Part shown: in pieces, positions 9,001-12,000 of the stretch
Layout of the letters: each line of letters starts with the position of its first letter
How positions within the stretch are numbered: the stretch's first letter is position 1
Source of the DNA: a virus
Lineage: Duplodnaviria; Heunggongvirae; Uroviricota; Caudoviricetes
IMG/VR virus record: IMGVR_UViG_2541047502_000019
Reading direction: 5' to 3' (one strand)
Length of the DNA stretch: 12,137 nt
Position numbers: made by a program

Positions 9001-12000
9001 AGCCAGTTTCATCGCAGTTTCAGGACTGACATAAACGTCTGTCCGGAACAGCCCATCAGTATCAACGGCATCCCCGGTTATCGGGGTGGAAGGATTCTCC
9101 AGTGATTTACTTCTGAACAGAGCATCAAGCAGCACGCGTCCCCCTTCTGGCCATAGCCAGTGCGCCCACCAGCAGTAAACCGCCGGACAGCATCAGAGCC
9201 GGAGCCATACCAAACTGCAGGTAAAACCCGCACGTAAGCAGGCCAAAACCAGCCAGCCCGATAACATCAGCAATTAGTGATTTCATAGAATTAAGAGAGC
9301 ATCGTCCGGATCAAGAGATGAGAGGAAATCGTCGGGTTCTTTGAGCATTGCCCGACCGATCGCCATAATCAGCGCAACCGCACCATCGATTTTGTTTTCC
9401 GCCTGCTCCTTGACAGGCTTCACCACATCATCGTTACCCGGAATGGTTTTGCCGACCACGTTGCCGATACACCAGGTCATGATGGGATTGCCGTCATGAT
9501 GAAAGCGCCCCGATTCAATCGCCGCTTCCAGCTCTTTCATCGGATCGGACATGTTGGTGTAGTTCTGAATGATGGTGATGGGGTTCAGGTCTTCATCAGC
9601 AAGGTCATGCGACAGCCCGGTCGCCCCGAAGGGGTCGATGGGTGACTCACTGACCGGGCTGATTTTGTTCGCCGCTTTGGCCTCCTCGAGGATGTACCGA
9701 TAATCCACCTCCGCACCAGCGGTAACAGTCAGAACGCCCATTTCCACCCATTTCTGAAAGCGTTCGGCTGTCCGGCGATCTTCATTTTTCTCGACGCTGT
9801 ACACCGTGTCATACGGTACCCAGAAACGCGGGGCCACACTGTAGTAATGCGTTTTACCGTCAATCTCGCGGGTATAAAGTCGCGCCATGCTGTTCATATC
9901 CAGCTTACGCGCCAGGTCAAAGGCCAGAATGCACGGCTGCCCCTCGAACTGCTCAAGGGTCAGTGATTTATCCTCGCAGCTCTGCCAGCTCACCAGGTTG
10001 AAATACGCCGAACGCGCCGACACCCAGATATTGAGGTGTTTTGTTTTAAAGACGTTTGCCAGACGGGCGTTATTTTTCGCACGCTGCTGCTGACTTAACA
10101 AAAATTCGCGATAAACCGACACGCCAATATTTGGATTGGCTTTTTCCAGCACCTGCGGGTCGATCCAGTCGTCACCTTCATCAACGGTATAGATGATCCC
10201 GAACAGTTCATCGTTGGGTACCGAACCGTTGAGCATCTCGATAACTTCCCGCCGCTTGTCGTAGCACGGCCCCTCAATGTTGTACCCGGCGGTGGTGATG
10301 GCCCACATCAGTGGCTGACGTCGCGCCCCCATCCCGGTAAGCATCGTGGTATAAAGCGCATCGGTGGCGTGCTCGTGATATTCATCCACCACCGCACAGT
10401 GGGGTGATGAACCATCACCAGGGTTACCGATCAGCGGTTCAAACCGCGCACCATCCTCCGGACGGTTCATGTTTGAGGCGTTAACCTCAATCCCGAACGC
10501 TTCCGTCAGCATGGGTGTGCGTTTACACATCAGTCGTGCCGGACGAAAGACTTCCCATGCCTGTTTCTCCGTCGTGGCACCGGAATACACTTCCGCGCCG
10601 AACTCGTTATCACAGGCAAAACAATACAGGGCGACACCGGCAGAGATTGCCGATTTGCCGTTCTTACGGGGGATTTCGGTATACACCTCCCGGAAGCGGC
10701 GCAGCCGGGAGCCTTTATTGACCCAGCCAAACGCGCAGCAGATCACAAAGAGCTGCCACGGCTCCAGCGTGATGGGCATCCGTTTGAATGCCCACTCACC
10801 CTTGGTGTGCGGCAACAGCTGAATAAATTTCGCGGCCCGTTCAGCCAGGTCCTTGTCGAAGCGGTAACGAAACGACTTACTTTTTTCCGCCATCAGGTCA
10901 TCAAGATGGCGCTGGCAGGCCTGAATCACAAACTGGCAGGCCACAATCTTTCCGCGCACGACATCACGGGCATACTGATTTGCAGCATTTACGTTGGGGT
11001 AAGATTTCCGGCTCATGATTCGATAATTTTCAGAAACGGGTTAGTGGCTTTCTTCTGCCCCGCCAGGCCAATCAGACGCTGGCGGCTGCTGGGGTCGAGT
11101 CCGAGCATTGCCCCCGTACTGCTCATCTCGGACTCCTGTTCTTTTTTGGCGGTCAGCTCCGGATTTTTGACCATGCCGCCCATTGCACCGGTGATGGTGT
11201 TGCCCTGTCTGGCAATATTTTTCACGGCACGTCGCCAGAACTCATAGGCCACGCACCACCGCTCAAGCACCGCGAGGTCAGTCACGCACAGCAGGCCCTG
11301 ACCGCAGAGTTCTTTGGTTGTCAGTTGCCACATGATCGTGGCGAGAGGGAGATCTTCTTCAGCGAACCACTCCGGTGGCTCAACACCTTTGATGGGCGTA
11401 AAAACAGGTTCATCTTTGTTCAGGGCTCGCTTGCCGGGGTTTCCGGCCAGCGCCTTGCGCGCCGTTGGCTTGGGGCGACGCCCGGAACGCCCCGCCGTTC
11501 CAGCCATATGCGGCACTCCTGGTTAAATTTCATTTTTCGCGGGTATAAAAAAACGATGGGGCGGGCAGTCCGGAAGACGTCAGGTCACAGGGATTTGACC
11601 CGCCCCTCCCCTCTGGCAGTGGGAACTGGTTCTTACTTCAGCCGTTCACGGGCCGTCTTCGCCTTATGACACGGCCAGCACAGGCTCTGCAGATTGCTGT
11701 CGGCATCAGTGCCGCCATGCGCTTTAGGGATGATGTGGTCAACGGTTTTCGCCTCGCGCACCACACCGGCACGCAAACACAACTGACACAGGCCTTTGTC
11801 ACGCTTTAGTACACGCCCCCGGATAACATCCCATTTCGAACCATAACCGCGCTGGTGAACCGCCCCGGAAATCCTGGAGACTAAACTCCCTGAGAAAGAG
11901 GTAAACAGGATGACTAAAAATACTCGTTTTTCCCCCGAAGTCCGTCAGCGGGCGATTCGTATGGTTCTGGAAAGTCAGGATGAATATGACTCACAGTGGG

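What the first reader, a model, noticed from the sequence alone, without database searches (positions are those of the whole stretch)
9125..9286. Unannotated small membrane ORF translationally coupled between the large terminase and portal genes
A 53-aa ORF with two hydrophobic stretches starts with an ATGA overlap on the terminase stop and ends overlapping the portal start, filling a 147-nt gap in an otherwise gap-free operon. HK97 itself has no gene here, so this may be a lineage-specific small protein. Its role (packaging-associated, or a membrane-active moron) is unknown.
Basis: seen in the sequence. Interest (0 to 1): 0.5.

Follow-up and report, generated by a model that had tools for sequence, protein, structure and literature searches.

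The report
Conserved small membrane gene preceding portal
The 53-codon reading frame between the phage terminase and portal genes is a real, widely conserved gene for a tiny two-helix membrane protein that is inherited together with the portal gene; databases already list it as a hypothetical protein, and its function is still unknown.

Summary
On the minus strand, 9286..9125 encodes a 53-aa protein whose ATG overlaps the TerL stop (ATGA) and whose stop lies 11 nt inside the portal gene. It is a real gene. All 80 viral contigs fetched through the portal keep the frame intact, as do 64 of 68 genome loci from about 60 species. dN/dS is 0.25 in this frame, against 1.0-2.4 in the other frames. AlphaFold gives a confident helical hairpin, with Gly13, Gly20 and Gly35 invariant. 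"Unannotated" holds only for the SfV reference, where a mis-called portal start hides the gene. RefSeq lists it as WP_000838374.1 (hypothetical protein), and PHROGs holds it as phrog_7105/502. It is not a moron: it has no promoter, terminator or Shine-Dalgarno of its own, and its GC content matches its neighbours. Its C-terminal Arg/Gly codons form the portal's ribosome-binding site. Where recombination has joined different TerL lineages to the same portal, the small gene follows the portal, and the breakpoint lies in the last ~18 TerL codons. The function is unknown. My best guess, at low confidence, is a low-copy membrane factor acting with the portal, like T4 gp40 in function but not related to it. 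The main rival is an unrelated late membrane function held in this slot by linkage.

The parts
9125..9286 (-). Coding sequence of the 53-aa small membrane protein (identical to RefSeq WP_000838374.1; PHROG 7105)
   Evidence: ORF listing and translation. Annotated in RefSeq. Full-length phrog_7105 hit at E=9e-22. dN/dS 0.25 against 1.0-2.4 in the other frames. Intact in 80/80 viral and 64/68 genome loci.
9283..9286 (-). ATGA overlap: the TerL stop (TGA 9285-9283) and the small-ORF start (ATG 9286-9284). This is a termination-reinitiation junction with no Shine-Dalgarno upstream.
   Evidence: Sequence. A 4-nt ATGA overlap is present in 42/62 diverse loci, and most of the rest (13/62) are 0 or 1 nt apart. 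Mean anti-SD duplex energy upstream is -2.2 kcal/mol, and only 13% of loci reach <= -5 against 20% at random positions.
9212..9265 (-). Predicted transmembrane helix 1 (residues ~8-25), glycine-rich (G10, G13, G15, G20). G13 and G20 are invariant across the family.
   Evidence: Hydropathy, AlphaFold helix 2-25, family alignment A4.
9149..9208 (-). Predicted transmembrane helix 2 (residues ~27-46) following the nearly invariant turn residue G26. G35 is invariant.
   Evidence: Hydropathy, AlphaFold helix 27-52, alignment A4.
9139..9148 (-). Portal Shine-Dalgarno AGAAGGGGGA. It lies within the small ORF's C-terminal Arg-Arg-Gly-Thr codons (R47-T50), so it also encodes most of the protein's basic cytoplasmic tail.
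   Evidence: Sequence. Across 62 loci the portal start has a mean anti-SD duplex energy of -9.95 kcal/mol, with 97% <= -5. It is unpaired in the centroid RNA fold.
9125..9135 (-). 11-nt overlap between the end of the small ORF and the start of the portal gene. The portal's Leu3-Asp4 codons (cTTGAt) contain the small ORF's TGA stop.
   Evidence: Sequence. The same 11-nt geometry is seen in 35/62 diverse loci and a 4-nt overlap in 19/62. The same geometry occurs upstream of a portal only 28% identical.
7909..9135 (-). Portal gene (408 aa, GTG start, PF04860), the downstream partner the small ORF is inherited with.
   Evidence: Pfam E=2.9e-98. N-terminus conserved from M1 across 8 phages. Small-protein identity tracks portal identity.
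9283..11016 (-). Large terminase gene (577 aa), the upstream gene from which the small ORF's translation is coupled.
   Evidence: Pfam TerL_ATPase and TerL_nuclease.
9286..9339 (-). Last ~18 codons of TerL (C-terminal tail ...[15 protein letters not shown]), inherited with the small ORF and portal. The recombination breakpoint lies at its upstream edge.
   Evidence: In three locus pairs, sliding-window identity jumps from ~0.35 to ~0.9-1.0 about 30-60 nt upstream of the small-ORF ATG. The last 18 TerL residues are 89-100% identical although the rest of TerL is ~40% identical.

Best explanation
This is a bona fide late gene of an SfV-type prophage. It encodes a ~50-residue inner-membrane helical hairpin, with both ends predicted to face the cytoplasm and a turn of at most about 4 residues on the periplasmic side. 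It has no ribosome-binding site, so it is made only when ribosomes finishing TerL restart at the overlapping ATGA, which implies low copy number. The portal's ribosome-binding site lies within its last codons, and its stop lies inside the portal's codons 3-4. Recombination moves it as one cassette with the portal gene and the last ~18 codons of TerL. These points are shown. What follows is inferred. I propose that the protein acts with the portal vertex at the cytoplasmic membrane, as a sub-stoichiometric factor that helps nucleate or localise portal-ring or procapsid initiation, or dock the packaging complex. That would be the role T4 gp40 (with host YidC) plays for the T4 portal, carried out here by an unrelated protein. 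I put 'real conserved membrane-protein gene' at ~0.95. The confidence given below applies to the portal-linked mechanism.
For: Coding and selection: the frame is intact in 80/80 viral loci and the family ORF is present in 64/68 genome loci fetched through the portal, not through the ORF. dN/dS is 0.25 against 1.0-2.4 in the other frames. Membrane hairpin: hydropathy, AlphaFold pLDDT 88.5, G13/G20/G35 invariant and D7/G26 nearly so across 35 members down to 25% identity. Late, coupled, low expression: no promoter on its strand and terminator-like matches at the level expected by chance; no SD for the ORF but a strong SD for the portal inside it. Portal linkage: over 1275 locus pairs, the partial correlation of small-protein identity with portal identity given TerL is 0.52, against 0.12 with TerL given portal. 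Pairs with portals 90-98% identical but TerL ~41% identical have small proteins 70-89% identical, with the breakpoint in the TerL tail. In L094/L095 five genes separate TerL from the small ORF, yet it still overlaps by 11 nt a portal that is only 28% identical and belongs to an S49-protease module. Every distant member checked that has a called downstream gene sits directly upstream of it; that gene is a portal by Pfam in 4 of the 7, while L171 and L172 are contig-cut with no Pfam record and L096 ends at the ORF. Portals with the ORF share an MxLDxLF N-terminus that HK97, which lacks the ORF, does not have. Losses were seen only in a decayed prophage and in a deletion fusion. Precedent: the T4 portal assembles on the inner membrane with the chaperone gp40 and YidC (PMC4493910, read).
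Against: There is no direct evidence of any interaction with the portal. The conserved residues lie inside the membrane, and only ~7 residues at each end would be exposed to a cytoplasmic partner. HK97 and a Methylopila prophage have portals of the same Pfam family and manage without it. There is no homology to T4 gp40 (hhalign probability 0.2%). Co-inheritance with the portal could be a by-product of position. The ORF lies between the TerL C-terminal tail and the portal. From my own knowledge of lambda gpA and T7 gp19, that tail is the portal-docking segment, so the two flanks are probably co-adapted and recombination between them would be selected against. HK97-type procapsid assembly is not known to need a membrane. 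The topology rests on hydropathy, the positive-inside rule and AlphaFold; no dedicated TM predictor was available.
Confidence: 0.35

Rival explanations
1. It is a late-expressed membrane-active accessory unrelated to the portal. It could block superinfecting DNA entry during lytic growth, tune lysis timing, or bind or inhibit a host inner-membrane protein. It would stay in this slot only because it is wedged between two co-adapted partners (the TerL tail and the portal) and carries the portal's ribosome-binding site, which makes clean loss difficult.
For: Conservation is concentrated in intramembrane glycines, suggesting helix packing within the bilayer rather than binding to a soluble protein. 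phrog_502, which 20/35 members match, is filed under 'moron, auxiliary metabolic gene and host takeover: membrane protein'. Small inner-membrane proteins of similar size do such jobs, for example T4 Imm and HK97 gp15 (records read). HK97-type portals can work without it. dN/dS of 0.25 is looser than in TerL (0.09) or portal (0.04).
Against: There is no homology to T4 Imm or HK97 gp15 (hhalign probability 0.2% and 2%), to any PADLOC model or to any Pfam holin above noise. The prophage already has a lambda-family holin, an endolysin and an Rz-type (spanin) gene. The ORF shows none of the patchy, mosaic distribution typical of accessory genes: it is present in essentially every intact relative over 55-100% portal identity. 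Expression by reinitiation alone predicts very few copies.
Confidence: 0.33
2. It is a translational spacer or coupling ORF. Only the act of translating across the TerL-portal junction matters, setting the portal:TerL ratio, and the peptide itself has no function.
For: There are overlaps at both ends, the ORF has no SD, and the portal often uses a GTG start. The portal's SD lies inside the ORF, so part of the C-terminal conservation could be a nucleotide constraint.
Against: Amino-acid-level purifying selection operates in this frame only. Glycines are invariant and the two-helix architecture is kept down to 25% identity. The portal has its own strong SD, unpaired in the predicted fold, and neither junction folds more stably than shuffled controls (z = +0.8 and +1.2). 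The portal therefore does not need the ORF to be translated. HK97 couples TerL to portal directly.
Confidence: 0.07
3. It is a moron or lysogenic-conversion gene expressed from the prophage for the host's benefit.
For: It is a small membrane protein in a prophage, and phrog_502 carries the 'moron' category label.
Against: There is no promoter on its strand and no terminator above chance. It overlaps both neighbours, with no SD. GC is 0.56 against 0.54 and 0.51 for the neighbours. Compare HK97 gp15, which has intergenic gaps and its own terminator. The ORF is conserved with the head module across hosts from E. coli to Ralstonia and marine bacteria.
Confidence: 0.04
4. It is not a gene: a chance ORF in a non-coding gap, or part of a longer portal N-terminus as annotated in SfV.
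For: The SfV reference annotates a portal start 48 nt further upstream (2392) and no small gene.
Against: The SfV start is a GTG created by a local substitution. It adds 16 residues found in no other portal and has no SD. The conserved GTG follows AGAAGGGGGA. Portal N-termini align from M1. The selection and conservation data are those. There is no Rfam hit.
Confidence: 0.02

Closest known systems
PHROG 7105 (with phrog_502 'membrane protein' and phrog_4810); RefSeq WP_000838374.1 'hypothetical protein'
   Same: This is the family itself. The window protein matches phrog_7105 over its full length (E=9e-22), and all 35 diverse members match it. 20/35 also match phrog_502 and 9/35 match phrog_4810. 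The window protein is identical to the PGAP-annotated WP_000838374.1.
   Different: These entries carry no function, no topology and no statement about the portal linkage. Nothing was found in the searchable literature.
T4 gp40, the membrane-associated head vertex assembly chaperone that acts with host YidC on the portal gp20
   Same: It is a phage-encoded membrane-associated protein (the T4 record's wording) proposed to act on the portal at the inner membrane at the start of head assembly (PMC4493910). That is the role I infer here.
   Different: There is no sequence relationship (hhalign probability 0.2%). gp40 is 114 aa and its gene lies between 41 and uvsX, about 54 kb from gene 20 in my recollection of the map, not next to the portal. 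The T4 head module also differs. The function here is untested.
Lambda gpW, the small gene between terminase A and portal B
   Same: It occupies the same genomic slot, a small gene between the large terminase and the portal (lambda gene order from my own knowledge).
   Different: From my own knowledge, gpW is a soluble 68-aa head-completion protein. The protein here is a hydrophobic two-helix hairpin, and no Pfam model, including the gpW family, matches any of 35 members.
HK97 gp15 and T4 Imm, small inner-membrane superinfection-exclusion proteins
   Same: They are similar in size (62 and 83 aa) and are phage-encoded. That they are inner-membrane proteins comes from my own knowledge.
   Different: There is no homology (hhalign probability 2% and 0.2%). 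HK97 gp15 is a free-standing moron with flanking gaps and its own terminator. This ORF overlaps both neighbours and has no signals of its own.
Class II (two-TMD, N-in/C-in) holins and pinholins
   Same: They are two transmembrane helices in a small phage protein with a basic C-terminal tail.
   Different: The only Pfam holin match is Phage_holin_3_6, in 3 of 35 members, with a best E-value of 0.0028; I treat these single-protein hmmscan E-values for a short hydrophobic sequence as noise. The gene is in the head module, not the lysis cassette. The prophage has its own lambda-family holin with an endolysin and an Rz-type (spanin) gene.

Membership tests
PHROG 7105 (uncharacterised phage protein family) | Full-length match to the family profile HMM | tested here: met
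   E=9.2e-22, residues 1-52 on profile positions 1-52 of 52. 35/35 diverse members match.
PHROG 502 ('membrane protein', moron/host-takeover category) | Match to the family profile HMM | tested here: inconclusive
   The window protein matches at only E=1e-4. 20/35 family members match, best 9e-12. This is probably a sister cluster of the same superfamily.
Two-TMD inner-membrane hairpin (structural class) | Two hydrophobic helices long enough to span the membrane, a short turn, and positive charge on the cytoplasmic side | tested here: met
   The KD 19-residue means peak at 1.8 and 1.9. The basic residues R47, R48 and R51 are at the C-terminus, and K2 at the N-terminus. AlphaFold gives helices 2-25 and 27-52 at pLDDT 88.5. 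This is prediction only; topology was not measured.
T4 gp40-type portal/head-vertex membrane chaperone | Sequence or profile homology to gp40 | tested here: not met
   hhalign of the family profile against T4 gp40: probability 0.2%.
T4 gp40-type portal/head-vertex membrane chaperone | Required for portal-initiated head assembly at the inner membrane | not testable with these tools
   This needs a knockout and procapsid analysis. Only genetic linkage to the portal is shown.
Lambda gpW / other Pfam-defined proteins of the terminase-portal slot (including DUF1056, which I recall from memory for Gram-positive phages) | Match to the corresponding Pfam model | tested here: not met
   No Pfam family at E<=1 for the window protein. 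Only scattered sub-threshold transmembrane noise for 35 members.
Moron (independently expressed prophage accessory gene) | Own promoter and terminator, intergenic flanks, often atypical composition | tested here: not met
   There is no promoter on the minus strand, and the terminator count equals the shuffle expectation. The ORF overlaps both neighbours. GC is 0.56 against 0.54 and 0.51.
Superinfection-exclusion proteins HK97 gp15 / T4 Imm | Homology to gp15 or Imm | tested here: not met
   hhalign probability 2% and 0.2%. No PADLOC model matches.
Holins | Match to a holin family and location in a lysis cassette | tested here: not met
   The best Pfam holin E-value is 0.0028, in 3/35 members. 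The lysis cassette lies elsewhere in the prophage.

The most novel reading that the evidence does not exclude
A large clade of HK97-fold phages of Proteobacteria starts head assembly, or docks its packaging vertex, at the cytoplasmic membrane through a dedicated ~50-residue two-helix protein. This protein is co-inherited with the portal and the portal-binding tail of the terminase. It would be a minimal, independently evolved counterpart of the T4 gp40/YidC route, in a phage group thought to assemble free in the cytoplasm.
Probability: 0.2. Interest if true: 0.7.

Novelty: already known. Interest (0 to 1): 0.4.

Why it matters
The gene itself is already catalogued, as a RefSeq hypothetical protein and as a PHROG, so its existence is not new. 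What this work adds is that it is one of the most stably placed small genes in this head-assembly module. It is under purifying selection, membrane-embedded, made only by reinitiation after TerL, and inherited as a unit with the portal and the TerL tail across Gamma- and Betaproteobacterial phages. If it acts on the portal, it would be the first membrane component of HK97-type head assembly or packaging, and it is easy to test genetically in SfV or in inducible E. coli prophages. If it does not, it is a clear example of a small gene locked in place between two co-adapted partners. In practice, the SfV reference portal start should be corrected and the small gene added.

Tried and rejected
- **Protein libraries.** Pfam, NCBIfam and PADLOC scans of the window protein and of 35 family members gave nothing above noise.
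- **Solved structures.** A PDB sequence/profile search found no related chain.
- **RNA element.** Rfam on 8900-9500 gave only one chance-level hit. RNA folding of both junctions was no more stable than shuffled controls, so I rejected an RNA element and SD masking.
- **Transcription signals.** The promoter/terminator scan found nothing on the gene's strand above chance, so I rejected the moron reading.
- **Fetching loci with the small-protein alignments.** This failed twice because no stretch was conserved enough for the pattern scan. I used portal-anchored scans instead, which are also unbiased with respect to the ORF.
- **tblastn of the 53-aa protein.** It aligned only residues 1-25, because the low-complexity filter masks the second half. 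Context checks rescued those hits.
- **Homology to functional analogues.** T4 gp40, T4 Imm and HK97 gp15 showed none.
- **Deliberately not done.** A fold search with the 53-residue hairpin, which would be uninformative. An AlphaFold run on an artificial small-protein/portal fusion, which could not be given a paired alignment under the tool's input restrictions and would invite over-interpretation.
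Full report
**1. The observation**

The window's genes run on the minus strand. Read that way, 9286..9125 is an ATG-initiated ORF of 53 codons: [53 protein letters not shown].
- The upstream 577-aa gene (11016..9283) is a large terminase (Pfam TerL_ATPase and TerL_nuclease).
- The downstream 408-aa gene (9135..7909) is a PF04860 portal.
- The TerL stop and the small ORF's start share ATGA (9286-9283).
- The small ORF's TGA lies 11 nt inside the portal, whose start is GTG 9135.
- The gap between TerL and portal is 147 nt.

**2. Where the window comes from, and how the ORF is annotated**

- The region is 100% identical to prophages of E. coli O157:H7 and other E. coli. It is present at 95% identity or more in 261 of 5426 complete genomes.
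- It is 96.5% identical to Shigella phage SfV.
- In RefSeq the ORF is annotated as WP_000838374.1, hypothetical protein, between 'terminase large subunit' and 'phage portal protein'.
- Several phage records also call it, always as hypothetical: Edwardsiella EPP-1, Salmonella F1055, Klebsiella vB_VIPKPNMC05, Escherichia Evi and vB_EcoS-733R5, and Ralstonia Dina.
- It matches PHROG 7105 (unknown function) over its full length (E=9e-22) and phrog_502 ('membrane protein') weakly. Pfam and NCBIfam have nothing.
- The SfV reference does not annotate it. There the portal is given a start 48 nt further upstream. That start is a GTG created by a local substitution. It adds 16 residues (VLYCWWAHWLWPEGGR) seen in no other portal and has no Shine-Dalgarno, whereas the conserved GTG follows AGAAGGGGGA.

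So 'unannotated' reflects an old mis-called portal start, not general ignorance of the ORF.

**3. Is it a real gene?**

I fetched relatives through the portal protein, so the sample is blind to the small ORF.
- **Viral contigs.** All 80 (portal 89-100% identical) have an uninterrupted 53-codon frame with ATGA at the TerL stop and an 11-nt overlap with the portal. They encode more than 18 distinct protein variants.
- **Species-dereplicated genomes.** 68 loci came from about 60 species: Enterobacterales, Halomonas, Marinobacter, Pseudomonas, Idiomarina, Achromobacter and Cupriavidus. Of these, 64 have an ORF that hits a family HMM.
- **The four without a hit.** One contig has no upstream sequence. 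One is an in-frame TerL-portal deletion fusion (Xenorhabdus beddingii). Two have distant or partial portals (Methylopila at 28% identity, and a Polyangiales fragment).
- **One hit is broken.** The copy in Candidatus Symbiopectobacterium endolongispinus is frameshifted, and TerL carries stop codons there too, so that prophage is decaying.
- **Selection.** Pooled Nei-Gojobori dN/dS over codons 3-50 is 0.25 in the ORF frame. It is 1.03 and 2.43 in the other two frames and 2.10 on the antisense strand. TerL and portal give 0.09 and 0.04.
- **Portal start.** Portal N-termini from eight phages align from Met1, with M1, D4, F7 and S9 invariant.

This is a coding gene under purifying selection, somewhat more relaxed than in its neighbours. 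The dN/dS figure is a pooled pairwise estimate over non-independent pairs, so it should be taken as approximate.

**4. The protein**

- It is very hydrophobic (GRAVY 1.13), with two stretches whose 19-residue Kyte-Doolittle means reach 1.8 and 1.9.
- Its charges sit only at the ends: K2 and D7, then R47, R48 and R51.
- AlphaFold, given a 22-sequence alignment, predicts helix 2-25, a break at G26 and helix 27-52, at mean pLDDT 88.5.
- An exhaustive profile search finds 233 clusters at 50% identity, almost all 45-65 aa long. A word-indexed search finds 197 clusters at 90% identity. Every one is unnamed apart from a single 'membrane protein'.
- Across 35 members down to 25% identity, G13, G20 and G35 are invariant, and M1, D7 and G26 nearly so.

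The inferred picture is an inner-membrane hairpin with both ends in the cytoplasm and a turn of at most about 4 residues on the periplasmic side. Glycines are spaced so as to allow tight helix packing. The topology is predicted, not measured.

**5. Expression signals**

- No sigma-70-like promoter lies on the gene's strand, and the terminator-like matches equal the shuffle expectation.
- GC is 0.56, against 0.54 for TerL and 0.51 for portal.
- In 62 diverse loci the 20 nt before the small ORF pair poorly with the anti-Shine-Dalgarno sequence. The mean is -2.2 kcal/mol, and 13% reach -5 or below, against 20% at random positions.
- The ORF starts in a 4-nt ATGA overlap with the TerL stop in 42 loci and within 0-1 nt in 13 more.
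- The portal start has a strong SD (mean -9.95 kcal/mol, 97% at or below -5). In the window this is AGAAGGGGGA at 9148-9139, within the codons for Arg47 to Thr50.
- Neither junction folds more stably than shuffled sequence (z = +0.8 and +1.2), and the portal SD is unpaired in the centroid fold. Rfam finds nothing.

Inference: the small protein is made only by termination-reinitiation after TerL, so in low amounts. The portal initiates independently. The purine-rich end of the small gene serves both as the portal's ribosome-binding site and as codons for the protein's basic tail. This argues against a moron and against a mere coupling spacer.

**6. Which neighbour does it belong with?**

- **Context of distant members.** Seven distant family members were looked up by exact sequence. 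In six the ORF overlaps or abuts genes called on both sides, in TerS-TerL-small-portal-protease-capsid order wherever the contig is long enough. The downstream gene is a portal by Pfam in four of them. Two are contig-cut with no Pfam record (L171, L172), and one contig ends at the ORF (L096). Several come from marine metagenomes.
- **The exception.** In L094/L095, five unknown genes and a terminator-like hairpin have been inserted after TerL. The small ORF still overlaps by 11 nt a 512-aa portal that is only 28% identical to the window's, in a module with an S49 protease. That portal nevertheless begins MFLDRLF, like MLLDALF here.
- **HK97.** Its portal is equally distant (27%) and has no small ORF. 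It aligns only from residue 33 and starts MEEPKYTIDL.
- **Mosaicism.** Across 51 distinct genome loci (1275 pairs), small-protein identity correlates with portal identity at r=0.56 and with TerL identity at r=0.26. The partial correlations are 0.52 and 0.12, and the regression is S = 0.57P + 0.08T. Pairs with portals 90-98% identical but TerL ~41% identical have small proteins 70-89% identical. Pairs with TerL 90% and portal 71% have small proteins 38-50% identical.
- **Breakpoint.** In three such pairs, nucleotide identity jumps from ~0.35 to ~0.9-1.0 some 30-60 nt upstream of the small ORF's ATG. The last ~18 TerL codons travel with the small ORF and the portal.

The unit of inheritance is therefore the TerL C-terminal tail, the small gene and the portal.

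One caveat applies. In lambda gpA and T7 gp19, the terminase C-terminal tail is the portal-docking segment (my own knowledge). The two ends of this cassette are therefore probably co-adapted, and anything lying between them would be co-inherited whatever it does.

**7. Mechanism**

- **Shown:** a conserved, selected, late-operon gene; a predicted two-helix membrane hairpin; translation signals implying low, TerL-coupled synthesis; genetic linkage to the portal.
- **Inferred (confidence about 0.35):** it works with the portal vertex at the cytoplasmic membrane, as a sub-stoichiometric factor that nucleates or localises portal or procapsid initiation, or docks the packaging complex. The precedent is T4, whose portal gp20 assembles on the inner membrane with the phage chaperone gp40 and host YidC (PMC4493910).
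- **Not a member of that family:** hhalign against gp40 gives 0.2% probability.
- **Main rival (about 0.33):** a late membrane-active function unrelated to the portal, such as exclusion, lysis timing or targeting a host membrane protein, locked in place by linkage. The conserved residues are intramembrane, and HK97 does without the gene. However, there is no homology to T4 Imm, HK97 gp15, PADLOC models or holins. The distribution is not patchy. The prophage also has its own holin, endolysin and Rz-type (spanin) gene.
- **Minor rivals:** coupling spacer (0.07), prophage-expressed moron (0.04), not a gene (0.02).

**8. Novelty and verdict**

The ORF and its family are already in public databases as an uncharacterised hypothetical protein or PHROG, so I class the feature as already known. 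No solved structure contains a relative, and the searchable literature says nothing about it.

The parts I could not find described are these:
- the strength of the evidence that the ORF is a real gene;
- the dual use of its 3' end as the portal's SD;
- the reinitiation-only start;
- the cassette-like inheritance with the portal and the TerL tail;
- the correlation with a portal N-terminal motif.

Interest is moderate at 0.4. It is a clean, testable candidate for a membrane component of HK97-type head assembly or packaging, but the function is unproven and an ordinary explanation, linkage, remains open.

Noticed in passing
L001 (SfV NC_003444) 2392-2442; equivalent to window ~9183-9133: The SfV reference portal (orf3) is annotated from an upstream in-frame GTG that exists only because of a local substitution. 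It adds 16 non-conserved residues and has no Shine-Dalgarno. The conserved start is the GTG 48 nt downstream. The mis-call hides the small gene in the reference record.
   Followed up: yes
L117/L118, L136/L123, L128/L120, around locus positions 3290-3350: The module is mosaic. Two TerL lineages, only ~41% identical, are joined to portals 91-98% identical in these three pairs, sometimes within one genome (Serratia sp. Ag1). The breakpoint is sharp and lies in the last ~18 codons of TerL, consistent with the TerL tail being matched to its portal.
   Followed up: partly
L094 1716-4001 and L095 (same arrangement): Five genes with no Pfam hits, followed by a terminator-like hairpin (GCCCGG-CTATAA-CCGGGC then TTTT, around L094 3890-3912), are inserted between TerL and the small ORF. 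The downstream portal is 512 aa and is paired with an S49 (not S78) protease.
   Followed up: partly
L164 (Xenorhabdus beddingii) around 3440-3510: An in-frame deletion fuses the TerL C-terminal region (...KIDGPVAL) directly to portal residue ~5 (FRHASLENP...). It removes the TerL tail, the small ORF and the portal start. This is presumably a defective prophage.
   Followed up: no
L162 (Candidatus Symbiopectobacterium endolongispinus) 3300-3511: The small ORF is split by a frameshift, and the adjacent TerL frame carries stop codons. It is the only frameshifted copy among the 148 portal-anchored loci, and it lies in a decaying endosymbiont prophage. The phage record QHHSV-1 (next item) also has a broken copy.
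   Followed up: partly
L006 (Halomonas phage QHHSV-1) 2501-2700: The small ORF has a premature stop after 30 residues, and the rest of the family sequence is not readable in that frame. The record annotates a 30-aa protein and a 94-nt gap before the portal. This is either a frameshift or a sequencing error in an isolated phage.
   Followed up: no
L102, L104-L107 (Symbiopectobacterium purcellii MEX chromosome): One chromosome carries five loci with identical small proteins and the same portal N-terminus (all five portals are 85% identical to the window's), which suggests recent prophage multiplication.
   Followed up: no
window 4048-4218 (minus strand): There is another very small gene (56 aa) in the late operon, between the tail terminator and tail sheath genes. 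The matching RefSeq record annotates it as a DUF2635 domain-containing protein.
   Followed up: no
L004 (E. coli O157:H7 strain 7409) 4573-6728, upstream of the packaging genes: In the matching O157:H7 prophage, an iss (serum survival lipoprotein) gene and an IS1203 insertion lie upstream of the terminase genes. The IS1203 element sits next to an HNH endonuclease gene annotated as partial (N-terminus missing). The corresponding end of the window (about 11520-12137) was not examined.
   Followed up: no
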